DNA of 64,000 nt, from the IMG/VR virus record IMGVR_UViG_3300045591_000029, positions 1 to 64,000 of that record; one strand, 5' to 3'. Source of the stretch: a virus (Duplodnaviria > Heunggongvirae > Uroviricota > Caudoviricetes). Positions 3,274 to 49,375 of this stretch are shown here, in pieces. The first letter of the stretch is position 1. Each line of letters begins with the position of its first letter. The notes under the pieces were generated by a model, which had not been told where the DNA came from, did no database searches, and worked only from the letters and a program-made list of their open reading frames with translations. The translations under genes and the position numbers were made by a program.

Positions 3274-4187
3274 TATGAACCTCCACGAGTTCCATTCATA
3301 CCTAGCTCTTTAGTCTTATAGAACTCAATCCAATAAGTCTCTCGTTCATTTAACTAATCTCTAGGCACTTCTTCCAAAACCTCAAATATAAAATTATATT
3401 GACCAGATTTTTGCATCGCCTAATATAACTTATTAGTCGCAGGTCCGTATGCTAAAGAGGTTTTAATGTGCTGTCTAAAACGCTCTTTAATATCAACAGA
3501 CTAACCAATATAAGCCTAACCAGTTGTTAAATCGGTAATCTTATAGATGCCGCAGACCTTCGCTGCTTTAGAGAATAATCTTGCCATAAGCGTATCATAT
3601 GAAGGTTTATAATAAGTTTCCCAAATTAGCTTATCTATTGCTTCTTTCTTAAAGAAACGCTTCTATAATTCACGGAGCAATTCAATATCACTAATATCTA
3701 TTTCATCAATAGCAAGACGATAATAGTCCTAATCTGCGGCAATCGCTTCTTGGCGTTGCTAAGCCTAGATATAAGACAACTATTTAGCTTCTAATTCGTG
3801 GAGTTTGTCTTGCTGATAAGAGATTTGATTAGTTATCTATTGAAGTTCTGCTAAATGATACTTTTCTTTGGCTTGATATGTTTCATCCAGCTCTTTAGTT
3901 TTCTTTTCAAATTGAGCTCTAGCGCTCTCTTCTGCTCGCTACTCAGCGCTTTCCCGCAACTTATTCGCAGTATCGTTCAAAGAATTGACAATTTCATTAT
4001 GTGATGCAATATCTTCTTTTACTTTTGCTAATTCTCTCTATTTCAATGCAATATCTTGTTCAATGCGTTTATTCTCTTCTTGTCTTTCTTTATTTATCAA
4101 TACTACCTAAAGCCGATTATTGCGAAGATATAAAACATATCCGATTAGCGCAAGAATAACCAGGCCTGATAATATGTAATAAATCAT
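3274..4187 (-). CDS. TAG-recoded gene: N-terminal TM helix plus coiled coil, C-terminal GIY-YIG nuclease domain (13 in-frame TAG)
   Basis: hand translation on minus strand: MIYYILSGLVILALIGYVLYLRNNRL*... GIYKITDLTTG*AYIG*SVDIKERFRQH...ETYWIEFYKTKELGMNGTRGGS; only TAG interrupts, ends with TAA; invisible in standard-code ORF track. Confidence 0.55.
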
Positions 4188-4500: not shown

Positions 4501-4792
4501 TGTAATAATCTCCTCTAAAATGTATTATTTAATTCTCGATGCAATTAAAGCATCAATTTCCAGTAAAGCATTTATCCCATCGGGAAAAGCCATAATCTAG
4601 TTAGTTAACTGCATAATTCGGTCTTCTGCGTGGGCTTTTTCCTCTTTTGAGGAATTTTCATCTTGGTGAATAAGTTCGCATTTATAGATTTCATCTGCGA
4701 ACCGCTTCATCTGTTTACGGGTCATACAATCTGTCCTTTTACTATTGCTTTTCTGAATTACATATATATTATATCAGAAAATATTTTTTAAG

Positions 4793-6004
4793 TCAACAAA
4801 AAATTTCTGATATAACGCAATCTTTAGCATCCTTATCTTCTCGTTTACACTTGAATACTGGATGTCGCAAAGTATGCTCTTTCTTATCAATTTGCATACA
4901 ATCAAGAGCTACAACATGACCAAGCCACAAATCGGGATTCTCAGTCATTTCTCTTTTGTTATCGTCAGTTAATCCAGAACTAACTGTACCTAAATCAACT
5001 AATTCACCCTTATCATTGTATGCGCCAATCTTAATTGCGGTTTTCCAGCCTAAATAATAAGGCTTAGTTACCGGAGTATAAAATCTATCCGCTTCGTCCA
5101 ACCACTTAGAACCATTAGCGGGAGGATTGTTGAAATACTTCTCATATAGATTACCCTCAACTAAGCGGGGATTGCACCATCCACCAAAGCAATGGTCTTC
5201 CTCAAAGCAATCATAGAATGAAGGTTGCGTCTCTTCCCAGTATTCCCAAGTAGCTAACTCTTTACCAGTATACTCTTTTGTAGCATCGCAAAAGCCAGTG
5301 CAGATTAAATCAATAGAATCCATCTGCTTGACTTTAATAGTCGACCACGCAGGTCTTTTACCGGGAGTGTATGGATAATCCTTCTTCTTTAAAACTGCAC
5401 CCTCGCCGCCAGATTTCAAGATACGAGAGATTTCAGCTTCCATATCTTCGTCAACACGAGTAGCAAGTCTCAAGAAACTGTACTGGTCGAGATTATGTTT
5501 CTTCCAAATTGCTGCAAGAATTTTATAGCGCAAATCCGCAGGTGAGTCAATAAGATTGACCGTATCATATGCAATAATATCATGCACATAATAATGGATT
5601 GGTTCTTTTTCTTGTCTCTTGATAGCAAGAGCAGGTAAACATCCCATAATACTTACAGTATCTTTCGATGTACCTCCGGGAACATAGATTTCTCCAATAA
5701 GGATAGTTCCTGCGGGAAGGCAGTTCAACGCCTCTTTTAAGTGAGGTACATTGTCACTTTTTTCTGTAAGGATACCAGATAGTTTACTTACTGTGCGACC
5801 AAAAAGATAAGAATGATTTTCAGTTTTTACAAACTGATAAAATGCTCCATCAATCTTCTCTTCAAGAAAATATTCCCCATTAGAGCATACTTCAGAGAGC
5901 ATGGATTCCTTTCCCGCAGGTAACTTCCAAATAAGCATTGGCTCAATCATTAAGTTTTCTGCTTCAGGATATAATTCATGTATCTTATCTTTATCAAAAC
6001 TCAT
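4793..6004 (-). CDS. ATP-dependent polynucleotide ligase (DNA ligase-like nucleotidyltransferase)
   Basis: motif I EEKIDGAF (KxDG) plus downstream ligase-like motifs; 403 aa. Confidence 0.6.
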   Translation of the reverse strand: MSFDKDKIHELYPEAENLMIEPMLIWKLPAGKESMLSEVCSNGEYFLEEKIDGAFYQFVKTENHSYLFGRTVSKLSGILTEKSDNVPHLKEALNCLPAGTILIGEIYVPGGTSKDTVSIMGCLPALAIKRQEKEPIHYYVHDIIAYDTVNLIDSPADLRYKILAAIWKKHNLDQYSFLRLATRVDEDMEAEISRILKSGGEGAVLKKKDYPYTPGKRPAWSTIKVKQMDSIDLICTGFCDATKEYTGKELATWEYWEETQPSFYDCFEEDHCFGGWCNPRLVEGNLYEKYFNNPPANGSKWLDEADRFYTPVTKPYYLGWKTAIKIGAYNDKGELVDLGTVSSGLTDDNKREMTENPDLWLGHVVALDCMQIDKKEHTLRHPVFKCKREDKDAKDCVISEIFC

Positions 6005-6096: not shown

Positions 6097-8460
6097 TTAT
6101 ACTTGCGTAATAGAAATCACTTGTTCGTTGTTCTTCAGCATGATATTGCCCATGGAAACTCGACCAAGAGTGGGAATGTCTTTACCGCTAATAACAATAG
6201 AAGACTTGTCACCATTGATAAGGAGATTATCACTTTCTTTGATAATCTCCGCTCCGGCGATTTCTCCCTTATAGCAGAGTAATCCCTTGCCTCCACGATT
6301 CTGTAAAGTAAGTTCATCAATCTGCATTTTCTTACCCAAGCCATTCTTGGAAACAATAGCGAGATAATCTGCGGGATCTACGATCGGCAATGCCGCGATT
6401 ACGCTGTCGCCATCATTTAGTTTCATGCCCTTAACACCTTGCGCTGTGCGCGAAGAGATAGGCATTTCCGTGGTTCCAAATCGAATAGCCATACCATTCT
6501 TTGTTACCAATAACATCTGCTCTTGATTGATAAATGTAACATCTGCAAGTTCATCGCCATCTTTAAAACTGATAGCGATAATACCCGTACGTTTCATCTT
6601 ATCATATTCATCAAGAGGAACCTTCTTGATAGTACCATTCTTTGTGGCAAAGAAGATAAACTTCTTGTCAGTATCTCTGGTCATTGTTGTAAATGCCATA
6701 GGTTTCTCGCCATTCTCAAACTCAATTAGAGTGGAGATAGGCGTTCCGTTAGACGCATTTGTACCTTCTGGAATATTATCCACTAATACACGATACATCT
6801 TGCCCTTAGAGGAGAATACCATCAAGGTATCTTGCGTATTAGTCTTCTGTGAGAAGAGAACAATGTCGCCTGTCTTAACGCCAGTAGTATTACGCTTTTG
6901 AGCCTTAAAATTCTTAGCATCAATACGCTTAATAGTGTTCTTCTTTGTCACTACAACTACGCAATCCTTCGGCTCAACGACAACTACTTCTTTCTCTTGC
7001 TTTGGAATGTCGGTGTTAAGCAGCTTAGTTCTACGAGCATCACCATAAGTGTCTCTTAACTGAGTAATCTTAGAGATTAAGACTTTATTTCTTACTTCCT
7101 TATTAGTTAAGATTTCAATACACTTAGCAATAAACTCTTTCTTTTCTTTTAACTCATTGACTAATTCTTCTTTATCAATACGAGTTAATTTGCCGAGCTT
7201 CATATCGAGGATTGCGTTTGCTTGCACTTCATCAACAGAGAGGAAATCCATTAGCTTAGTTCTCGCATCAGCGCGTCCCGCAGATTGTTTAATCAATGCA
7301 ATTACTTCATCAATCTTATCAACTGCGGCAATCAGACCCTCAAGGATATGTGCTCTTGCTTCAGCTTTCTCTTTATCGAAAGTTGTGGCATTGACGAGGA
7401 CTTCTTCTTGATGGTCAACATACGCATGGAGTAAATCAACCATAGAACAGAGCTTAGGTGTGCCATTGACAATATAGTTCATGTTATAGGATAAAGTAGA
7501 CTGTAAATCTGTCAGCAAGAACAACTTATTCAATGCCTTAGATACAGACACTCCATCTTTTACATGGAATACCAACTTGTTCTGACCGATATTAGACTCA
7601 TCATCAAAGTCATCAATCAGCTCACTTAGAACATCAATATTCTTCTCAATCTGCTCTTTAATCTTATTGCGGTAGGTACGATAAGGAATACTGGTGAAGA
7701 CGATATCCTGCCCATCAATCTCATAATCGCCCTGAATTTTCAGAGAGATATTAGATTTACCGGACGCAAAAGCTGTCCGCACATCCTTAATGTTAAGAAC
7801 TGTACCACCGAGAGGGAAATCTGGTCCGGGAATATAAGACAACACTTCATCAATAGTCAGTTCGCCCTTCTCGATTAAAGCAATAGCAGCATTACATACC
7901 TCTGTCAGATTGTGCGGGGCAGAGTTATGCGCCATAGAAATGCCGATTGCTTGACGACCGTTACAGATTGCGTTGGGAAATAGTGAGGGAAGAACGATAG
8001 GCTCTTGGAACTCACCATTGTAAGTCTCTTTAGTAGGAACAACATTCTTACTAAAGTCATTCATCATCAGGTCGGTAAACTTAGAAGGCTTAGCCTCAGT
8101 ATAACGAGAAGATGAGAACATATCGTTATTTTCCTGTGTACCCAACTGTCCCTGCCCAGTTACAAGAGGATAGCGCATGAGAAACTCCTGCGCCATCTTC
8201 CGCAGAACACCATAGCAAGCAATATCGCCATGGAAGTAGGAGGTTGCCAGAGTAGAACCAATGATAGCATTACACTTCTTAGTCTTACTCTTGTTATCCA
8301 TCTTTAGATAATCTTCCATTGTCCAAAGAATCTTTCGCTGAGCACTAAGGAGACCATCTTCCGCGGCAGGAATCGCACGATCGGTTAGAACTTCTTCTGC
8401 ATAAGTTAGAAAGTTATCTTTAGCTTCATCAAGAATATCAACTTCTGTAATCAAACTCAT
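6097..8460 (-). CDS. type IIA topoisomerase subunit A (GyrA/ParC-like)
   Basis: RAIP..DGL..QRKIL, HGD, active-site SSRYTEAK, YIPGPDFPLGG; 787 aa. Confidence 0.85.
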   Translation of the reverse strand: MSLITEVDILDEAKDNFLTYAEEVLTDRAIPAAEDGLLSAQRKILWTMEDYLKMDNKSKTKKCNAIIGSTLATSYFHGDIACYGVLRKMAQEFLMRYPLVTGQGQLGTQENNDMFSSSRYTEAKPSKFTDLMMNDFSKNVVPTKETYNGEFQEPIVLPSLFPNAICNGRQAIGISMAHNSAPHNLTEVCNAAIALIEKGELTIDEVLSYIPGPDFPLGGTVLNIKDVRTAFASGKSNISLKIQGDYEIDGQDIVFTSIPYRTYRNKIKEQIEKNIDVLSELIDDFDDESNIGQNKLVFHVKDGVSVSKALNKLFLLTDLQSTLSYNMNYIVNGTPKLCSMVDLLHAYVDHQEEVLVNATTFDKEKAEARAHILEGLIAAVDKIDEVIALIKQSAGRADARTKLMDFLSVDEVQANAILDMKLGKLTRIDKEELVNELKEKKEFIAKCIEILTNKEVRNKVLISKITQLRDTYGDARRTKLLNTDIPKQEKEVVVVEPKDCVVVVTKKNTIKRIDAKNFKAQKRNTTGVKTGDIVLFSQKTNTQDTLMVFSSKGKMYRVLVDNIPEGTNASNGTPISTLIEFENGEKPMAFTTMTRDTDKKFIFFATKNGTIKKVPLDEYDKMKRTGIIAISFKDGDELADVTFINQEQMLLVTKNGMAIRFGTTEMPISSRTAQGVKGMKLNDGDSVIAALPIVDPADYLAIVSKNGLGKKMQIDELTLQNRGGKGLLCYKGEIAGAEIIKESDNLLINGDKSSIVISGKDIPTLGRVSMGNIMLKNNEQVISITQV

Positions 8461-19305: not shown

Positions 19306-19803
19306 TTAATTAGTTTGATCAGTAAAATAGACTTGTGAAAGTTCACCAATGTCATCAATCTCACAATCGTTTATTTCAAATGGCCAATCTACCCATAAAT
19401 CAATATGATTTTCTAAAAAATTTAATGGATCTTTCTTAAAAGTTTTATAATCTTCCTCAGATAGCTCAAGTTCTCCATGGTAATATCCGCCTCGTAGATA
19501 ACCAGTAACCCAATCTACTTCTGCATCTATATTAACTTTATGAGTTACCTCAGTTGGATTGTCAAGAGAGATATAATATTTTTTGCCATTGATTTTTTTC
19601 CAGAATGAATAACTACTTTTTGGATAGCCAACTTTTTTTTCTAGAATATCTTCCTTGGTATTAGATTGCAACACAATAACTGGGTTTTTACGCGGATCTT
19701 GACCAATTGGGTGAAAATCTACTCCATCGGCGCCGGTAATTTCAAACCATTCTTTCCATCCTGTTCCTTTTTGCCATTCAGCCATTATTATTCCTCCTGA
19801 CAT
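19306..19803 (-). CDS. hypothetical protein
   Basis: 165 aa intact ORF. Confidence 0.45.
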   Translation of the reverse strand: MSGGIIMAEWQKGTGWKEWFEITGADGVDFHPIGQDPRKNPVIVLQSNTKEDILEKKVGYPKSSYSFWKKINGKKYYISLDNPTEVTHKVNIDAEVDWVTGYLRGGYYHGELELSEEDYKTFKKDPLNFLENHIDLWVDWPFEINDCEIDDIGELSQVYFTDQTN

Positions 19804-20612
19804 TGGATTAGAGATTCGATATACTCGCGTCCTTCTCCGACAAATAGCGGGATACTTTTATCAATTTCCCAGCTAGAGCGAGTTACACCATCGGTCTCAG
19901 TTGTAACCTTGATGCAACAAGAGCCATGCTTATACATAGGATGAAAGTTTTCCCAAGAAATCCCTTTCTCCGTGATTAGCATCTCTTTGATTTTCTCACA
20001 AGACTTACCTTGGAGTTCTTTATGAGAGAAATTAGCCTGGCCTACCATTTGAATAGAATTGCGGGTTGCATCTAGCTGACGCCAATAGACGAGGTTGGTG
20101 ACCTCTTCTTTGGGAATATTGAAGCAACGAGCATCAAACATGGCGCCCATTTGTGTTTTTACTGCATAAGTCTGGCCCAAATCATCTTGTGGGTAAGGGT
20201 TATCCATAGTCGCATGAGCGGCATAATAATCTAGATTCCTATGCCGGACTCCTTCATTAAATGCTTTATTGAAAGCCATCGTTGCCATAGAAGCAGCGAT
20301 AGAGCACATTTTCTGTACCTCGTAATCAAACCAAGCAGAGCTGTTGAGCCGCTTGTAATCAACAAGGATAAGAGTGATTTCATCACTTTGTGTATACCCT
20401 AACACGCACCCTTGAATGTTTTCACAGAGATATTTCATGGTATCCTGCATTGTGTTAATCAATACATCATCAAAAGGCTTGCTGAAACCACGGGTAAAGG
20501 TGTGGAAAGCTTTACCGTCAATGCGAATTGCAACCGGTGTACGACGCATTAGCTTAGTCTTAGGAACGCTTTCGTAATCTTTCATTCTTTTAGCCAGATC
20601 TGACGTATCCAT
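19788..20612 (-). CDS. Thg1-like protein (tRNA-His guanylyltransferase family; 3'-5' nucleotidyl transferase for tRNA 5'-end repair)
   Basis: VAIRIDGKAFHTFTRGFSKPFDDVLINTMQDTM...LGYTQSDEITLILV matches Thg1 core (RxDG..FH.F...KP.D...QSDE). Confidence 0.6.
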   Translation of the reverse strand: MDTSDLAKRMKDYESVPKTKLMRRTPVAIRIDGKAFHTFTRGFSKPFDDVLINTMQDTMKYLCENIQGCVLGYTQSDEITLILVDYKRLNSSAWFDYEVQKMCSIAASMATMAFNKAFNEGVRHRNLDYYAAHATMDNPYPQDDLGQTYAVKTQMGAMFDARCFNIPKEEVTNLVYWRQLDATRNSIQMVGQANFSHKELQGKSCEKIKEMLITEKGISWENFHPMYKHGSCCIKVTTETDGVTRSSWEIDKSIPLFVGEGREYIESLIQCQEE

Positions 20613-31481: not shown

Positions 31482-32285
31482 TCACTTAGTAATTTCCTCT
31501 AAGAGGGCTTTCTTTACAATATTATATTGTACTTCGTTGAGTAAAGTATCAACTTCTGTATCCACATCATTCTTATTATGAGTGTTGCAAAACTCGTCTG
31601 CCTCGTTTACAACTAACTTTAGATATTTATCAGCAATTTTTCGAGCCTCATCTAAAGAATATTTACCAAGTTTAATGTCCATGATAAAATCTTTATCTTT
31701 TGGATAAAGACATTCTTCATACGGGTAACCGGCGAGGTAAGAACTAATGAAATTCTGAACTCTTACTAGATGTGAAACTTGTTTTGGATCGTATCCATAC
31801 TCGGCTAGTACTTCCAATTTGCTAGGATATTCATGCTCCATAGCATGATATTTCTCCATAGCGATACCCTTCATGGTCTTAACTGCGCCATATGGAGAGT
31901 AGTGAGCAATCTGCTCGCGCGCCGCAGTCAGACGACCCCATTCACTTTCAAAAAGAGGGTTTACCCAAGCATAAGGGGTAAAGAGAATTTCAATGAAGTT
32001 GAGATTCTGTTTGCGGAAGGTGGCGAGCATCAATCGAATATCCTTCAGATCGGTATGCTCGTTGTTTGCTCTTACATGAGTGGTGCTGATAGGCTTCTTG
32101 TTAAGAACCACTTCATCAAAAGTAGGAGTAACAATCAGCTTTGTATCAACATCACTCTTAGGAGTTTCAAGACCATAGTTCTGAGAGCCTTGCAGGAAGA
32201 TACCGACGATTCTAGATTCGTCGAATCTTTGCAAACTTTCATCGAGATGGTCATAGACTCTACTCATAACATCAGTCATCACCAA
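31482..32285 (-). CDS. Pol-beta-superfamily nucleotidyltransferase
   Basis: LQGSQNYGLETPKSDVDT (GS..DxD motif); 267 aa. Confidence 0.5.
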   Translation of the reverse strand: MVMTDVMSRVYDHLDESLQRFDESRIVGIFLQGSQNYGLETPKSDVDTKLIVTPTFDEVVLNKKPISTTHVRANNEHTDLKDIRLMLATFRKQNLNFIEILFTPYAWVNPLFESEWGRLTAAREQIAHYSPYGAVKTMKGIAMEKYHAMEHEYPSKLEVLAEYGYDPKQVSHLVRVQNFISSYLAGYPYEECLYPKDKDFIMDIKLGKYSLDEARKIADKYLKLVVNEADEFCNTHNKNDVDTEVDTLLNEVQYNIVKKALLEEITK

Positions 32286-33688: not shown

Positions 33689-33807
33689 CTATGTAACTTC
33701 CTTTCCTTACCTTATATATTTATTATATCATAAATTAAATTATTTTTCAATAAATAGAAAAGACGGGGAAATGGCAATTTTCTTGCCATTTCCCCGTTTG
33801 AGAGGGT

Positions 33808-35340
33808 TTAGTGAATCTGAGCGTAACGCTCGCTGTCCAGCTTCTCAAGGACCAGATCGAGTCCGTCCTTGCCGCTGAGAATCTCCTGAATCATAACAGG
33901 GCTAAAGCCACTTACATAGCTAAAGCCGTCACCGATTGCGGGAATGTTGTTATTGCGGGCGTTCAGGTTCCAGAAGATGCAGCTAGGTATCTTGTAACCG
34001 TAGCGTGCCCACTTAGCCCTCATAGCCTCAAAGAGAGTCTGGATGGCATCGCTGTGCATACCATACCCACAGCCACCCCGATCAGTAGAGTTACTGGTAA
34101 CACACTGGTCAAACTCCATATCAGAGAAGATATAGACGCGAGTAGGCATATCCTCAGGCTTTACACTTTGCTTCATTGCGGTGCTGAGCAGCATATCGAA
34201 GACAGCTTCGATATTAGTATTCATACCCCAATCTGCACCAATGCAACGGCACAACTTATCGGTAATGTCTGCTCCCTCGAACTTCACCAGCTTAGGATGA
34301 CCAGAGAAGGTAATGAAGTGGTTGGCGAAAGGACCATGCGCCTTATCTGCGATGTACGCACCCATAGAAACCGCAGCCTCCATAGGAACACCGGTCATAG
34401 AGCCAGAAACATCGACAACAGCAATGCCATTCTCGGTATTATCACCGTAGTAGTTAGGAAGGTTCTCCCAATACTTCTGAAGCATCAGACGATCAGGATC
34501 GCCCAATCCCTTACGATTGGCTTCAAAGGCACGATGTGCAATGTCGTGAGGATAGAGAGCACTGGCATTAACCTTAGTCTCAGTATCCTTAGCGAAAGCC
34601 TCATACTTAGCCTTAATCATATCGCGGCGAGCAAACGCATTGCGATAAATTACGCCGGCACGAGAAGGAATCTTATCGAACTCAATCTCGTCCCACCGAT
34701 TCTCAGACATAAGGCGCTCAACGATGCGGATACGCTCACGCAGAGTAGAGAGAGTCTTACGGTACTGCTTGGCAGTCATGCCGAAGTGATTACGGGTAAT
34801 CACCGCCAGATGGCGAGATTCCTTAGAGCTGGTATTCTCAGACTTCAACCACTTAGCAAGCAGAGAAGGAGTCTTACAAGAAACATCCAAGGCCAGCTGA
34901 TGACGCATCAGATTGAAAGCGTCCTTCTCCAGAGGAGTGCCAACGAAGATATACAGGTCGTCCCAGCGACCGTACTCAGGCACGAACCGGAGGTTACGAC
35001 GCATAGCTTCAGTCTCATAGGAAGCCATCCAATGAGTCACAACGCGGAAGAAGCGACGCTCACCCTGTCCACCACGCACATCGCGCAGATAGAATAGGCA
35101 CTTCAGGGCATGAGCCTCATCCTCCTTAAAAGCGGCCTTAAACAGAGTGATGCAATCCTCGTCAGAGCGATTGCGGTAAGAGCCGCCGAGCGCAAACAGA
35201 TCCATAAGCCCATTGAGAGTAGACTTATGGGTGACAGCACCATTTTCAGTCAGAGTATAATTGTCGTTCTGCTTCATAGCATTGAGAAAAGTGTTCATAG
35301 TATCAGTCTCCTTTTGATTTTTAGTTTCTCCCTTGGACAA
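33808..35340 (-). CDS. rsr: Ro60/Rsr-like RNA-binding protein (TROVE domain plus C-terminal vWA with MIDAS DVSGSM)
   Basis: N-terminus ...TENGAVTHKSTLNGLMDLFALGGSYRNRSDEDCITLFKAAFKEDEAHALKCLFYLRDVRGGQGERRFFR fits TROVE consensus; C-terminus VVDVSGSMTG vWA; 510 aa. Confidence 0.6.
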   Translation of the reverse strand: MSKGETKNQKETDTMNTFLNAMKQNDNYTLTENGAVTHKSTLNGLMDLFALGGSYRNRSDEDCITLFKAAFKEDEAHALKCLFYLRDVRGGQGERRFFRVVTHWMASYETEAMRRNLRFVPEYGRWDDLYIFVGTPLEKDAFNLMRHQLALDVSCKTPSLLAKWLKSENTSSKESRHLAVITRNHFGMTAKQYRKTLSTLRERIRIVERLMSENRWDEIEFDKIPSRAGVIYRNAFARRDMIKAKYEAFAKDTETKVNASALYPHDIAHRAFEANRKGLGDPDRLMLQKYWENLPNYYGDNTENGIAVVDVSGSMTGVPMEAAVSMGAYIADKAHGPFANHFITFSGHPKLVKFEGADITDKLCRCIGADWGMNTNIEAVFDMLLSTAMKQSVKPEDMPTRVYIFSDMEFDQCVTSNSTDRGGCGYGMHSDAIQTLFEAMRAKWARYGYKIPSCIFWNLNARNNNIPAIGDGFSYVSGFSPVMIQEILSGKDGLDLVLEKLDSERYAQIH

Positions 35341-35410
35341 GGGAGTTAAGTTCTAGACCTATTGTTTTTGGCTCCGTTGGGTTTAACCACTTCCCTACCT
35401 CCGCCATATA

Positions 35411-35489
35411 GTGGTGGGGAGGGCAGGATTCGAACCTGCGTAGCATAAGCGACGGATTTACAGTCCATGCTATTGCTGTTAAGGTCTTA
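35411..35489 (-). ncRNA. tRNA-like element: 3' two-thirds of a class II tRNA-Tyr(GUA) scaffold (acceptor 3' strand, T arm, long variable arm, anticodon arm CUGUAAA) with no matching 5' acceptor strand; adjacent to rsr
   Basis: plus strand tggtggggagg-gcagg-attcgaa-cctgc...; downstream sequence lacks complement of ggggagg. Confidence 0.35.
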
Positions 35490-35558
35490 TGGAGCGAACG
35501 GTGAGATTCGAACTCACGCCCTTACGGGTCACACGGCTTTGCAGGCCGGGATCTTAAA
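35488..35558 (-). tRNA. atypical class II tRNA-like gene, anticodon loop CUGCAAA (nominal GCA) with long variable arm
   Basis: acceptor gcgaacg/cgttcgc, T arm gtgag-ttcgaat-ctcac, D arm and AC stem irregular. Confidence 0.35.
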
Positions 35559-35581
35559 CCACTTGACTACGTTCGCATAAG

Positions 35582-35597
35582 AGCGGCAAAAGCCGCT
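35582..35597. terminator. short hairpin gagcggc-aaaa-gccgctt downstream of lipoprotein gene
   Basis: 7-bp stem directly after stop codon. Confidence 0.3.
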
Positions 35598-35848
35598 TAA
35601 TCGGTCATCAAGACCACATTGGAGATATGAGTAAGATAGGTTACGCCATCAATTTTAATTTGAATGGTATCACCATCATCAAAGTCTTTCCAAGACTGGA
35701 CTTCACCTTCGATAACTGTTCCATCCGGAATTACGATAACCGCTCGATTGAATGTATAGTTGGTATCGAGGATTTGACGATTGCCGCATCCCGCCAAACA
35801 AAGTGTTAAACTAATTGCCGCGGCAAAGGCCACAACTCTTTTTTTCAT
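35597..35848 (-). CDS. small lipoprotein
   Basis: signal peptide with lipobox LAGC (MKKRVVAFAAAISLTLCLAGCGN). Confidence 0.5.
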   Translation of the reverse strand: MKKRVVAFAAAISLTLCLAGCGNRQILDTNYTFNRAVIVIPDGTVIEGEVQSWKDFDDGDTIQIKIDGVTYLTHISNVVLMTD

Positions 35849-35959: not shown

Positions 35960-36265
35960 TTAAATAAAAGCCCAGAGAATATCAAAAGCACGTTTGTGTT
36001 CATCATTCTCCAAAGGATTATTGGCAGGAATATCTGCTAATTTTCCGTAGCAGTCCATCAGAATAGCGCTATCTTCGAGATTACCATAGAAACAATCTTT
36101 AACATTGTAGGTTGCTGTGTGCGGACCGCAGATGGTTTTCATAAAACTTTTCTCTGTCTTGAGCCAAATACTTTTAGCAGATTGAACCACATAAAGTTCG
36201 TCCTCAGTTAAATGCAAAACTTTAAGTTCCATACCTTCAACAACCTTTCTGTAATTATTATACAA
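35960..36265 (-). CDS. hypothetical protein
   Basis: 101 aa. Confidence 0.4.
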   Translation of the reverse strand: MYNNYRKVVEGMELKVLHLTEDELYVVQSAKSIWLKTEKSFMKTICGPHTATYNVKDCFYGNLEDSAILMDCYGKLADIPANNPLENDEHKRAFDILWAFI

Positions 36266-36288
36266 AAAATTTTTACGAAAATCAAAAA

Positions 36289-49145: not shown

Positions 49146-49236
49146 TGGCAGCCCCGCTGGGGTTCGAACCCAGACTTACTCCTTCAGAGGGATACGGTTT
49201 TAGAGACCGCCGTGCTAACCATTACACCACGGGGCA
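49146..49236 (-). tRNA. amber suppressor tRNA, anticodon CUA (loop CUCUAAA), class II scaffold (about 20-nt variable arm), G73, unpaired U1.U72
   Basis: plus strand ...gatacggt-tttagag-accgc...: AC stem gcggt/accgt (G.U closing), rc loop CTCTAAA; acceptor tgccccg/cggggct, D arm gtgtaatggttagcac, T arm ctggg-ttcgaac-cccag, CCA encoded. Confidence 0.7.
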
Positions 49237-49254
49237 ATATTCAGCAAGACACAG

Positions 49255-49330
49255 GTTTTTGCACTGGACTCGAACCAGTTATCATTTTCGTGGCAAGAAA
49301 AGAATTATCCCATTAAAAAACTTGCTGTAC
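49255..49330 (-). tRNA. probable tRNA-Gly(GCC) with weak acceptor pairing
   Basis: T arm actgg-actcgaa-ccagt, AC stem ttttc/gaaaa loop plus gtggcaa giving GCC. Confidence 0.4.
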
Positions 49331-49335
49331 TGTGT

Positions 49336-49375
49336 CTTTCTTACTTTCTATAAATATTATATCATAATATTTATT
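49336..49375 (-). promoter_or_regulatory. same promoter-like motif upstream of tRNA-Gly/suppressor tRNA cluster
   Basis: ctttcttactttctataaatattatatcataatatttat. Confidence 0.45.

What the first reader, a model, noticed from the sequence alone, without database searches (positions are those of the whole stretch)
33808..35560. Ro60/Rsr (TROVE+vWA) gene immediately flanked by atypical tRNA-like elements: candidate phage Y RNA locus
33808..35340 encodes a TROVE-domain protein with C-terminal vWA (MIDAS DVSGSM), the Ro60/Rsr architecture. Directly upstream on the same strand (35411..35558) lie two non-canonical tRNA-like units. One is a tRNA-Tyr-like 3' portion lacking a 5' acceptor strand. The other is a class II-shaped unit with a GCA loop and irregular D arm. 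Bacterial Y RNAs (YrlA type) are Ro-bound RNAs with a tRNA-like module and are typically encoded next to rsr. The genome also carries an RNA ligase, a Pnk-like kinase and a Thg1-like protein, consistent with an RNA quality-control or repair theme.
Basis: inference. Interest (0 to 1): 0.75.

Follow-up and report, generated by a model that had tools for sequence, protein, structure and literature searches.

The report
Phage Ro-like protein with tRNA-mimic RNAs
A phage gene for a Ro60-shaped RNA-binding protein sits next to a small RNA built like a rearranged tRNA, one of at least eight related RNAs in this genome that share a previously undescribed signature also found beside the same protein family in many unrelated phages.

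Summary

Unit 1 (35490..35576) is an ordinary tRNA-Cys(GCA) and not part of the RNA. Unit 2 is not a truncated tRNA. Its 5' acceptor strand and D arm lie downstream, making a 135-nt circularly permuted tRNA mimic (35354..35488) with the YrlA layout: T arm, closed acceptor stem, D arm.

It belongs to a family closed by a covarying 9-bp terminal stem followed by the motif ACAGCAA. The window has at least eight copies. One of them (42022..42133) matches Rfam YrlA below threshold.

The same frame lies next to DUF2828 genes in 9 of 14 cultured phage lineages sampled. It was not detected in the T4 and T5 tRNA regions. In one complete Staphylococcus phage genome, the only confident hits abut the gene.

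Best reading: a divergent, widespread phage Ro-Y RNA system, here sitting among tRNA-repair genes. Protein-RNA binding and function are inferred, not shown.

The parts
33808..35298 (-). Ro60-like protein gene (496 aa): N-terminal helical-repeat domain (Pfam DUF2828) plus C-terminal vWA domain (DUF7788) with MIDAS DVSGS
35328..35345 (-). 5'-UTR hairpin CUCCCUUGUCCAAGGGAG just upstream of the Shine-Dalgarno sequence of the Ro-like gene
   Evidence: Conserved with compensatory changes in distant loci, e.g. CCUCUUGUCCAAGAGG, GGUUAUGAAAGAUAACC and ACCUUGUAAUAAGGU. Coordinates verified.
35354..35488 (-). Element B (the finding's unit 2, extended): a framed, circularly permuted tRNA mimic. Order: 5' stem strand, ACAGCAA, anticodon-arm mimic, T arm, closed acceptor stem with ACCA, D arm, A-rich linker, 3' stem strand.
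   Evidence: Sequence reading. RNAfold z = -2.64. Full-length R1 model hit of 26.4 bits, with 32.6 bits in relative L003. 92-94% conserved in 8 related contigs.
35482..35487 (-). Element B terminal stem, 5' strand AGACCU. It pairs with 35355..35360.
35473..35479 (-). Element B family signature ACAGCAA
35452..35468 (-). Element B hairpin AUGGA-CUGUAAA-UCCGU. It occupies the 'V' position and copies a tRNA-Tyr (GUA) anticodon stem-loop.
   Evidence: Mycobacteriophage Gardann has an analogous Asn-type loop, CUGUUAA.
35423..35439 (-). Element B T arm GCAGG-UUCGAAU-CCUGC
35398..35422 (-). Element B closed acceptor stem: CCUCCCC (35416..35422), ACCA (35412..35415), linker CUAUAUG (35405..35411), GCGGAGG (35398..35404). 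6 of 7 pairs form, with one C-C mismatch.
   Evidence: Weak Rfam tmRNA_permuted match across T arm, acceptor, CCA and acceptor. Also.
35379..35395 (-). Element B D arm GGG-AAGUGGUUAAA-CCC
   Evidence: An identical D arm occurs in the Cronobacter phage S13 element.
35355..35360 (-). Element B terminal stem, 3' strand AGGUCU
35490..35576 (-). tRNA-Cys(GCA), the finding's unit 1. A genuine tRNA with U73, an encoded CCA and an unusually long variable arm. Not part of the Y-like RNA. Its CCA is followed after 1 nt by element B.
   Evidence: ARAGORN. Rfam tRNA 54.6 bits. Variable-arm covariation in relatives.
42022..42133 (-). Element A: the best YrlA-like copy. It has the frame plus V hairpin, T arm, 7-bp closed acceptor-like stem and D arm, and lies 7 nt upstream of tRNA-Gln(CTG).
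   Evidence: Rfam YrlA RF02553 full length, 27.5 bits, E 3e-4 in a local search, gathering score 69. Seed of model R1: 96.8% of cells paired and 18 of 25 pairs with compensatory changes.
43255..43402 (-). Framed RNA with variant motif CCAGCGAA. It starts 1 nt after the CCA of tRNA-Val.
   Evidence: R1 E 0.72. Sequence and fold.
43734..43875 (-). Framed RNA (AAGACCUAU-ACAGCAA...GUGGGUCUU-G) with a module that is not tRNA-like
44042..44148 (-). Framed RNA with variant motif GCCGCAA. The module is a tRNA body (D arm, anticodon arm with loop CUACAAA, T arm) whose acceptor stem is replaced by the frame. ARAGORN calls it 'tRNA-Cys aca'.
45293..45357 (-). Minimal framed RNA (65 nt; AAGGCUCUU-UCAGCAA...GAGCCUU)
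   Evidence: R1 28.2 bits, E 0.007. Also.
47943..48060 (-). Framed RNA whose module is an acceptor-less tRNA body with an 8-nt anticodon loop. ARAGORN calls it 'tRNA-??? tgtt'.
   Evidence: R1 35.2 bits, E 2e-4. Also.
49247..49337 (-). Framed RNA with only a T arm as its tRNA-like part. ARAGORN calls it 'tRNA-Gly gcc'. It lies about 10 nt upstream of the CUA suppressor tRNA.
33763..33797 (-). Intrinsic terminator (15-bp stem plus T run) immediately after the Ro-like gene
36257..36285 (-). Nearest upstream sigma-70-like promoter (TTGATT-17-TATAAT). Predicted unit: ORF, tRNA-Leu, ORF, tRNA-Cys, element B, Ro-like gene.
   Evidence: a consensus match only
31482..32285 (-). Context: RlaP-like Pol-beta nucleotidyltransferase (borderline: 22.3 bits against a cut-off of 23)
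   Evidence: RlaP function from PMC12776372.
25405..26667 (-). Context: RNA ligase (PF09414)
19788..20612 (-). Context: Thg1-family 3'-5' nucleotidyltransferase

Best explanation
The locus encodes a divergent phage version of the Ro60-Y RNA ribonucleoprotein.

Shown:
- The protein has the Ro60 fold (helical ring domain plus vWA/MIDAS).
- The RNA immediately upstream, in the same predicted transcription unit, is a 135-nt circularly permuted tRNA mimic with the YrlA arm order.
- It is one of at least eight paralogous small RNAs in this genome. They share a 'frame': a covarying terminal stem of about 9 bp (AAGRC-NNNN / NNNN-GYCUU-G) followed on the 5' side by ACAGCAA and a hairpin. The frame encloses interchangeable modules: none, a permuted T-acceptor-D module, or an acceptor-less D-anticodon-T tRNA body.
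- The same frame lies next to DUF2828 genes in unrelated phages.

Inferred:
- The frame (stem plus ACAGCAA) is the binding site for the Ro-like protein. It would play the role of the GNCGAA-bearing stem of YrlA or the GGUCCGA helix of animal Y RNAs.
- The tRNA-like modules would recruit or imitate substrates of tRNA-handling enzymes. The RNP would then act in tRNA or RNA quality control and repair, or in protection against anticodon nucleases, together with the neighbouring RNA ligase, phosphoesterases, RlaP-like and Thg1-like enzymes.
- Element B has a 7-bp acceptor stem with an encoded ACCA. By analogy with M. smegmatis YrlA, RNase P probably cleaves its acceptor loop, leaving a nicked tRNA-like molecule with a free CCA end.

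For: RNA family:
- Seed alignment of 5 sequences: 96.8% of cells paired and 18 of 25 pairs with double-sided changes. Slid controls give 33-45% paired.
- 26 hits from 19 sources: 94.1% paired and 24 of 25 pairs compensatory, against slid controls of 37-48%.
- ACAGCAA occurs in 18 of 26 hits.
- All 103 hits lie on the gene strand.

YrlA relation: Rfam YrlA hits full length at 27.5 bits in the window. In Enterococcus and Klebsiella phage copies it scores 47.8, 36.4, 35.8 and 34.3 bits (E 1e-7 to 9e-4).

Linkage to the gene:
- A framed RNA lies directly upstream of the gene in three metagenomic clades.
- It lies adjacent to the gene in Bacillus, Mycobacterium, Shigella, Klebsiella, Staphylococcus (two genera of phage), Campylobacter, Cronobacter and Enterococcus phages.
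- No full-length frame hit was found in the T4 and T5 tRNA regions.
- In the complete 89-kb genome of a Staphylococcus phage with a single tRNA, the only hits with E<0.01 are three frames right after the gene.
- A motif-first scan of IMG/VR found DUF2828 nearby for 5 of 16 closed frames against 1 of 65 unclosed motif instances (p = 9e-4).

Context: RNA-repair genes in the window. Precedents are YrlA next to Ro60 in bacteria and 22 phages (PMC4201824) and phage phiLo Ro60 binding two upstream Y-like RNAs and host PNPase (PMC12135203).
Against: - No direct evidence exists that the protein binds these RNAs or that they accumulate.
- No TROVE HMM hit was found.
- Element B itself gets no Rfam YrlA or Y_RNA hit at E<=10. 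Its R1 score is modest (26.4 bits, E 0.018 in 1.1 Mb). Its terminal stem is only 6 bp.
- Element B is confined to one narrow clade with no covariation within it. It is partly deleted or recombined in L008 and L011, so it is dispensable there.
- The YrlA motif GNCGAAN0-1G is absent.
- Most copies sit inside tRNA arrays, so part of the linkage to the gene could reflect the gene's own position next to tRNA arrays.
- 5 of 14 cultured lineages showed no frame within 3-4 kb.
- The alignment used was fitted to the model.
Confidence: 0.6

Rival explanations
1. The framed elements are real structured RNAs but have nothing to do with the Ro-like protein. They would be processing or punctuation cassettes, or independent small RNAs of phage tRNA operons. 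They would sit near the gene only because the gene itself is conserved next to tRNA arrays.
For: Most copies in the window and in related contigs lie between tRNAs. They often start 1 nt after a tRNA CCA or end 7-10 nt before a tRNA. The DUF2828 gene abuts a tRNA array in Bacillus, Listeria, Shigella, Klebsiella, Campylobacter and Enterococcus phages.
Against: Frames abut the gene where there is no tRNA array: Staphylococcus phages S-CoN_Ph10 and Alsa_2, and Mycobacterium phage Gardann. In the complete S-CoN_Ph10 genome they occur only there. The T4 and T5 tRNA clusters gave no full-length frame hit. Motif-first sampling recovers DUF2828 genes.
Confidence: 0.2
2. Element B is a non-functional remnant of two tandem tRNA-Tyr genes: the 3' half of one copy followed by the 5' half of the next. 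It would be kept only by recency.
For: The anticodon-stem 5' strand is present twice (AUGGA before the loop, ACGGA after the D arm), as expected from a tandem duplication with loss of the outer halves. The element is restricted to a narrow clade and is disrupted in L008 and L011. Chen et al. warn that tRNA dimers mimic YrlA.
Against: It carries the family frame at both ends (AAGACCUUA-ACAGCAA ... AGGUCUAG). The two acceptor strands are mutually complementary. The same design (7-bp stem, ACCA in the loop, identical D arm, proper frame) recurs in Cronobacter phage S13. Substitutions among relatives fall in linkers and not in the arms. It is not a copy of the phage's own tRNA-Tyr.
Confidence: 0.08
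3. Element B is a permuted tRNA-Tyr gene. The frame would bring the two ends together, an endonuclease and the phage RNA ligase would circularise the RNA, and RNase P plus 3' trimming would open the acceptor end to give a working tRNA, as in the alga Cyanidioschyzon merolae.
For: All four tRNA arms are present: a canonical Tyr anticodon loop, a 7-bp acceptor stem and A73-CCA. The genome encodes an RNA ligase, phosphoesterases and Thg1.
Against: Most family members with the same frame cannot become tRNAs, because they have no anticodon arm, 3-5 nt acceptor loops and no CCA. There is a C2-C71 mismatch. A normal tRNA-Tyr exists at 41697..41782. No bulge-helix-bulge motif or splicing endonuclease was identified (not searched systematically).
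Confidence: 0.05

Closest known systems
YrlA-type bacterial Y RNAs with Ro60/Rsr (Chen et al. 2014, PMC4201824; Rfam RF02553)
   Same: A small RNA encoded next to a Ro60-fold protein on the same strand. A 5'/3' terminal stem encloses a tRNA-like domain in the order V hairpin, T arm, closed acceptor-like stem, D arm. There are several paralogues per genome. The M. smegmatis copy has a 7-bp acceptor stem that RNase P cleaves and to which CCA is added, which parallels element B's encoded ACCA.
   Different: The protein is not detectable as TROVE by sequence (it matches DUF2828). All copies score below the Rfam gathering score (0-48 bits against 69). The 5' motif is ACAGCAA and not GNCGAAN0-1G. 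Modules are interchangeable, including copies with no module and acceptor-less tRNA bodies. There are at least eight copies, embedded in a tRNA array.
Thermus phage phiLo Ro60 with Yrl1/Yrl2 (PMC12135203; PDB 9KOP, 9L5Y)
   Different: phiLo Ro60 is annotated as TROVE, and its RNAs were picked by a CGAA motif in an internal bulge. No tRNA-array context or ACAGCAA frame is reported.
Deinococcus radiodurans Yrn1
   Same: A Y RNA whose tRNA-like part has the other topology, with an anticodon-like arm between the D-like and T arms. This resembles the window's acceptor-less D-anticodon-T framed copies (44042..44148, 47943..48060).
   Different: The Ro-binding helix differs. It is a single bacterial lineage with no shared sequence motif.
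Circularly permuted tRNA genes (Cyanidioschyzon merolae) and two-piece or permuted tmRNA
   Same: The 3' half (T arm, acceptor 3' strand, CCA) is encoded upstream of the 5' half (acceptor 5' strand, D arm). There is a weak Rfam tmRNA_permuted match across this junction.
   Different: There is no evidence of maturation to a functional tRNA or tmRNA. The window has its own standard tmRNA (45841..46181).
Stable RNAs of unknown function in the T4 (rnaC, rnaD) and T5 (RNA1, RNA2 and others) tRNA clusters
   Same: Small, partly tRNA-like RNAs interspersed among phage tRNA genes (annotations).
   Different: The R1 model finds no frame in them. To my knowledge T4 and T5 lack a DUF2828 gene; this was not tested on their whole genomes.

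Membership tests
Ro60 / TROVE proteins | Match to the TROVE domain profile (Pfam PF05731) | tested here: not met
   No TROVE hit at E<=0.01 for the protein, nor at E<=10 for any of 40 family members. No sequence or profile hit to Ro60 chains in the PDB.
Ro60 / TROVE proteins | Helical-repeat ring domain followed by a vWA domain (the Ro60 fold) | tested here: met
Ro60 / TROVE proteins | MIDAS motif (DxSxS) in the vWA domain | tested here: met
   D296-V-S298-G299-S300, invariant in 40 homologues.
Ro60 / TROVE proteins | Binds Y RNA on the outer surface and misfolded RNA ends in the central hole | not testable with these tools
   Needs biochemistry or a structure.
YrlA RNA (Rfam RF02553) | Reaches the Rfam gathering score (69 bits) | tested here: not met
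   Element B: no hit at E<=10. Element A: 27.5 bits. Best relative: 47.8 bits.
YrlA RNA (Rfam RF02553) | Terminal 5'/3' stem enclosing V hairpin, T arm, closed acceptor-like stem and D arm, in that order | tested here: met
   Element B. Element A and relatives, with covariation in all four helices.
YrlA RNA (Rfam RF02553) | GNCGAAN0-1G motif near the 5' end (the proposed Ro contact) | tested here: not met
   Replaced by ACAGCAA in 18 of 26 aligned members, with the rest being close variants. Sequence of B shown.
YrlA RNA (Rfam RF02553) | Encoded within about 4 kb of the Ro60 gene and on the same strand | tested here: met
   Element B ends 56 nt before the start codon, on the same strand. Element A is 6.7 kb upstream on the same strand.
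YrlA RNA (Rfam RF02553) | Associated with Ro60 in vivo; carries tRNA modifications | not testable with these tools
   Needs immunoprecipitation and modification mapping.
tRNA (the finding's unit 1, 35490..35576) | Cloverleaf scoring above the tRNA model threshold, with identity elements | tested here: met
   ARAGORN tRNA-Cys gca. Rfam tRNA 54.6 bits against 29. U73 and CCA are visible in the sequence.
Permuted tRNA genes | 3' half upstream of the 5' half with complementary acceptor strands | tested here: met
   CCUCCCC-ACCA-CUAUAUG-GCGGAGG.
Permuted tRNA genes | Bulge-helix-bulge junction and maturation through a circular intermediate to a functional tRNA | not tested
   No BHB search was done, and no expression data are available.

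The most novel reading that the evidence does not exclude
DUF2828 proteins and 'ACAGCAA-frame' RNAs form a widespread phage ribonucleoprotein platform that has gone unrecognised. It is present in Felix O1-like, Twort-like and cluster L mycobacteriophage lineages, in other cultured lineages, and in large gut phages.

In this reading, one conserved protein-binding frame carries swappable tRNA-mimic cargo: permuted tRNAs, acceptor-less tRNA bodies, and faithful copies of Tyr or Asn anticodon loops. The cargo would serve as scaffolds, sensors or decoys in the conflict between host anticodon nucleases and phage tRNA repair.
Probability: 0.35. Interest if true: 0.85.

Novelty: new variant of a known kind. 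Interest (0 to 1): 0.75.

Why it matters
Ro60-Y RNA particles are well studied in animals and in a few bacteria, yet their function is still debated. In phages they are known only from TROVE-annotated genes.

This analysis links a large 'domain of unknown function' family to a specific partner RNA family with a simple, searchable signature.

If confirmed, the link would:
- greatly enlarge the known range of Ro-Y systems;
- show that the protein-binding motif co-varies with the protein subfamily (GNCGAA with TROVE, ACAGCAA with DUF2828);
- explain many mis-annotated 'pseudo-tRNAs', 'tRNA-OTHER' features and tiny ORFs in phage genomes;
- offer tractable model phages (Felix O1-like, Staphylococcus, mycobacteriophage LeBron, whose gp53 is toxic on overexpression) in which to test what tRNA-mimic Y RNAs do during infection.

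Tried and rejected
- Rfam at gathering threshold over the whole window gave only tRNAs and tmRNA. Rfam at E<=10 on 35280..35620 gave no Y_RNA or YrlA hit for element B.
- Sequence and profile searches of the protein against the PDB found no Ro60.
- BLASTN of element B against 80 related loci found it only in the closest clade. Covariation could therefore not be assessed on B itself and was assessed on the wider family.
- I considered that tRNA-Cys(GCA), which is the nearest upstream tRNA in most related loci, might be the partner RNA. I set this aside because it is a normal tRNA with Cys identity elements, and the pattern fits conserved gene order.
- I considered that the terminal repeats mark a MITE-like mobile element. 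I rejected this because copies within one genome share only the frame, and the variable 4 bp covary as in an RNA helix.
- A loose regular-expression scan for frames in Listeria, Vibrio, T4 and T5 loci gave only noise. The one exception is a possible mini-frame over the start codon in Vibrio phage VH7D.
- Literature searches for DUF2828, YrlA, Ro-like and related terms found no description of this RNA family. One review (PMC10870794) could not be retrieved.
- My first arm-parsing script failed. The second mis-registered a few stems (Kleb_a, Izhevsk, Sf13), so I rely on the covariance-model alignments for pair counts.
Full report
**1. What is at the coordinates**

On the minus strand, an ORF runs from 35340 (TTG) to 33808. 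Homologues align from the ATG at 35298, which has GGAG 8 nt upstream, so the gene is 33808..35298 and encodes 496 aa.

Pfam assigns DUF2828 to the N-terminal region and DUF7788 to the C-terminal region. PHROGs assigns phrog_850, 'RNA-binding protein'.

No TROVE profile hit appears, even at E<=10 in any of 40 family members. Only weak VWA_2 hits are seen, in 37 of 40 members. Neither a sequence search nor a profile search finds Ro60 in the PDB. The MIDAS residues D296, S298, G299 and S300 are invariant.

An AlphaFold2 model built on 40 homologues has pLDDT 77.7 and pTM 0.68. Its structural matches are:
- Foldseek: the 11 best PDB hits are all full-length Ro60 proteins (Thermus phage phiLo, Xenopus, Deinococcus, human; E 3e-7 to 4e-4). 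After them come matches to the vWA domain alone.

The 'TROVE+vWA' architecture is therefore right at the level of fold, but it fails the HMM test.

**2. The two 'tRNA-like units'**

Unit 1 (35490..35576) is a real tRNA. ARAGORN calls it tRNA-Cys(gca), and Rfam tRNA scores 54.6 bits against a threshold of 29. It has U73 and an encoded CCA. Its one oddity is a long variable arm, whose stem covaries among relatives.

Unit 2 was read as a tRNA-Tyr 3' portion with no 5' acceptor strand. In fact the strand continues. After T arm, CCUCCCC and ACCA comes a 7-nt linker, then GCGGAGG (complementary in 6 of 7 positions), UA, and a D arm GGG-AAGUGGUUAAA-CCC. The whole element is closed by AGACCU (35482..35487) pairing with AGGUCU (35355..35360).

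The element therefore spans 35354..35488. It is a circularly permuted tRNA-like RNA in which:
- the acceptor stem is closed by a loop;
- the RNA ends lie between the D arm and the anticodon arm;
- a faithful tRNA-Tyr anticodon stem-loop (AUGGA-CUGUAAA-UCCGU) sits in the position of the YrlA 'V' hairpin.

This is the arm order that defines YrlA (PMC4201824). Rfam's YrlA and Y_RNA models nevertheless do not detect it at E<=10. The only related signal is a weak tmRNA_permuted match across T arm, acceptor, CCA and acceptor.

**3. It belongs to a family**

Element B is 92-94% conserved in eight closely related viral contigs. This is too close for covariation to be assessed on B itself.

A descriptor scan and folding of 80 loci that encode relatives of the protein revealed better-preserved elements of the same design. 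One is a second copy in the window at 42022..42133. Rfam YrlA matches that copy over its full length at 27.5 bits (gathering score 69; E 3e-4 in a 201-nt search).

All these RNAs, and element B, share a frame: 5'-(A)AGRC-NNNN-ACAGCAA, then a hairpin, a variable module and an A-rich linker, then NNNN-GYCUU-G-3'. Across 38 distinct versions of the stem, positions 5-7 switch among CG, GC, UA and AU.

A covariance model (R1) was built from five sequences. On that seed, 96.8% of cells are paired and 18 of 25 pairs show changes on both sides, against 33-45% paired when the partners are slid.

Searched over the window plus 80 loci (1.1 Mb counting both strands), R1 gives 103 hits, all on the gene's strand. 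They include:
- element B (26.4 bits, E 0.018; 32.6 bits in relative L003);
- seven further window copies, at 42019..42136, 43252..43405, 43731..43878, 44039..44151, 45290..45360, 47940..48063 and 49243..49341 (sequences).

The modules differ between copies:
- none (59-66 nt minimal copies);
- T arm, closed stem and D arm (YrlA-like);
- D arm, anticodon arm and T arm with the frame replacing the acceptor stem, which is the Deinococcus Yrn1-like topology described;
- other folds.

Three of ARAGORN's 31 'tRNAs' in the window are such framed modules: 44053..44122, 47955..48029 and 49254..49319.

**4. Link to the protein family**

The protein family occurs in 709 deposited phage genomes from many host genera.

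In three metagenomic clades (95%, 61% and 55% protein identity), a framed RNA lies immediately upstream of the gene.

I sampled 14 cultured lineages. R1 finds full-length frames with the same ACAGCAA signature, on the same strand and usually within 20-300 nt of the gene, in nine of them:

| Phage | Frame position in locus | Note |
|---|---|---|
| Bacillus phage Izhevsk | 3455-3521, 3833-3917, 1684-1811 | |
| Mycobacterium phage Gardann | 5530-5657, 5664-5731 | first, 39.5 bits, is annotated as 'tRNA-Asn' |
| Shigella phage Sf13 | 5878-5942, 6446-6571 | |
| Klebsiella phage phi1_175008 | 5705-5826, 5839-5961 | 48 and 47 bits |
| Staphylococcus phage S-CoN_Ph10 | three copies | start 17 nt after the stop codon |
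| Staphylococcus phage Alsa_2 | 4644-4714, 4720-4824 | just downstream of the gene |
| Campylobacter phage NCTC12673 | 3893-3976 | 19 nt before the start codon |
| Cronobacter phage S13 | 5151-5291 | same 7-bp stem, ACCA and D arm as element B |
| Enterococcus phage ZJGS4 | two T-acceptor-D copies plus one minimal copy | 74 and 63 bits |

Rfam YrlA hits the Enterococcus and Klebsiella copies at 34-48 bits. These hits are significant (E 1e-7 to 9e-4) but below the gathering score.

No frame was found within 3-4 kb of the gene in Listeria LMTA-94, Vibrio VH7D, Erwinia pEa_SNUABM_49, Aeromonas Ahp1 or Acinetobacter ME3.

Three controls bear on whether the link is to the gene or to tRNA arrays:
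- The T4 and T5 tRNA clusters, with their classical stable RNAs, give only partial tRNA-dimer hits.
- In the complete 89,461-bp genome of S-CoN_Ph10, which has one tRNA, the only hits with E<0.01 are the three frames abutting the gene.
- A motif-first scan of IMG/VR (AAAGACNNNNACAGCAAA) returned 81 instances. Of the 16 with a complementary 3' strand, 5 had a DUF2828 gene on the same strand within 112-1453 nt in the short stretch retrieved. Of the 65 without one, only 1 did (one-sided Fisher p = 9e-4).

On a wider alignment of 26 hits from 19 sources, 94.1% of cells pair and 24 of 25 pairs show compensatory change. This alignment was fitted to the model, which biases it towards the structure.

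**5. Context**

A consensus promoter lies at 36285..36257, and a strong terminator (33797..33763) follows the gene. The predicted transcription unit is therefore ORF, tRNA-Leu, ORF, tRNA-Cys, element B, Ro-like gene. This is a prediction only.

Element B starts 1 nt after the CCA of tRNA-Cys.

Downstream genes include a borderline RlaP-like nucleotidyltransferase, three metallophosphoesterases, an RNA ligase and a Thg1-family enzyme. RlaP adds nucleotides to damaged tRNA halves before ligation (PMC12776372). Related phages carry RtcB or RNA ligase near the gene or elsewhere in the genome.

LeBron gp53, a member of this protein family, is annotated 'Ro-like RNA-binding protein'. It is toxic when overexpressed, and no partner RNA is reported for it (PMC13148394).

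**6. Interpretation**

Established:
- a Ro60-fold protein;
- a covarying, multi-copy RNA family with a conserved frame, some members of which are distant YrlA relatives;
- a recurrent physical linkage of the two across unrelated phages.

Inferred by analogy with Ro60-Y RNA systems (PMC4201824; PMC12135203):
- the frame is the protein's binding site;
- the tRNA-like modules tether or imitate tRNA-handling partners.

Speculative:
- a role in tRNA repair or as an anticodon-nuclease decoy. The repair-gene neighbourhood suggests this, as do the exact Tyr (window) and Asn (Gardann) anticodon-loop copies.

**7. Novelty**

Phage Ro60 with adjacent Y-like RNAs is a known kind of system. What appears to be new is:
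- the assignment of the DUF2828 family to that kind;
- the ACAGCAA frame, which replaces the YrlA motif;
- the modular, multi-copy organisation.

Rfam 15 has no family that captures these RNAs. The literature searches found no description.

I rate this a new variant of a known kind, with an interest score of 0.75.

Noticed in passing
window 35490..35576 (-): tRNA-Cys(GCA) with U73 and CCA but a class II-like long variable arm of 17-19 nt. The arm's stem covaries in relatives (CCC/GGG to CCU/AGG). The ortholog in L011 has a normal short variable region. A long arm is unusual for tRNA-Cys and could affect synthetase recognition.
   Followed up: partly
window 35328..35345 (-); also e.g. L016, L022, L033, L059, L067 just upstream of the gene: Conserved hairpin 20-30 nt upstream of the Shine-Dalgarno sequence of the Ro-like gene, with compensatory changes across clades. 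In distant loci a sigma-70-like promoter directly precedes it, so it would be the 5'-terminal hairpin of the mRNA. It might stabilise the mRNA or act as an autoregulatory site.
   Followed up: partly
window 49146..49236 (-); L009 and L011 ORFs upstream of the gene: A 91-nt tRNA with anticodon CUA, which ARAGORN calls 'Pyl'. In-frame TAG codons occur in HNH-like ORFs of related contigs. Together these suggest that the phage group reads TAG as a sense codon.
   Followed up: no
window 45841..46181 (-): A phage-encoded tmRNA (Rfam 76 bits, full length) lies inside the tRNA array.
   Followed up: no
window 40913..40986 (-): tRNA-like gene with its own acceptor stem but an 8-nt anticodon loop (ARAGORN 'taaa'; Rfam tRNA 36.2 bits). 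It is not a framed element. It could be a frameshift-type or non-standard tRNA.
   Followed up: no
L009 about 1563-1650 and L040 about 2372-2460: A different conserved, apparently structured stretch follows tRNA-Cys directly (GUAUGAGGUUAGCUACCUCCAGGUU...GAUGCUUGUGGGGCC), with compensatory differences between the two loci. It was not identified.
   Followed up: no
L088 (Vibrio phage VH7D) 3965..4005: A mini frame-like sequence (GACAUUUU-ACAGCAA...AUGUC) overlaps the ribosome-binding site and start codon of the DUF2828 gene itself. It could be an autoregulatory mimic of the protein's RNA target, or it could be chance.
   Followed up: no
L082 5534..5604; L091 4896..5138; L086 5519..5772; L094 4669..4773: Deposited annotations label framed RNAs as 'tRNA-Asn', 'tRNA-Ser' (121 nt), 'tRNA-OTHER' or tiny hypothetical proteins. 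These are probable mis-annotations.
   Followed up: partly
L008 2303..2459 and L011 1826..1905: In two close relatives, element B is rearranged. In L008 a complete tRNA-Leu(CAA) is fused through its T arm to B's downstream half. In L011 the tRNA-like core is deleted and an HNH-like ORF is inserted. The region is recombination-prone, and B is dispensable there.
   Followed up: partly
window 42790..42900 (-): A 5' half of a frame (AUAGACCACG-ACAGCAA) followed by a T-arm-like hairpin, with no matching 3' strand. It runs into a Shine-Dalgarno sequence and AUG, and is possibly a truncated family member.
   Followed up: no
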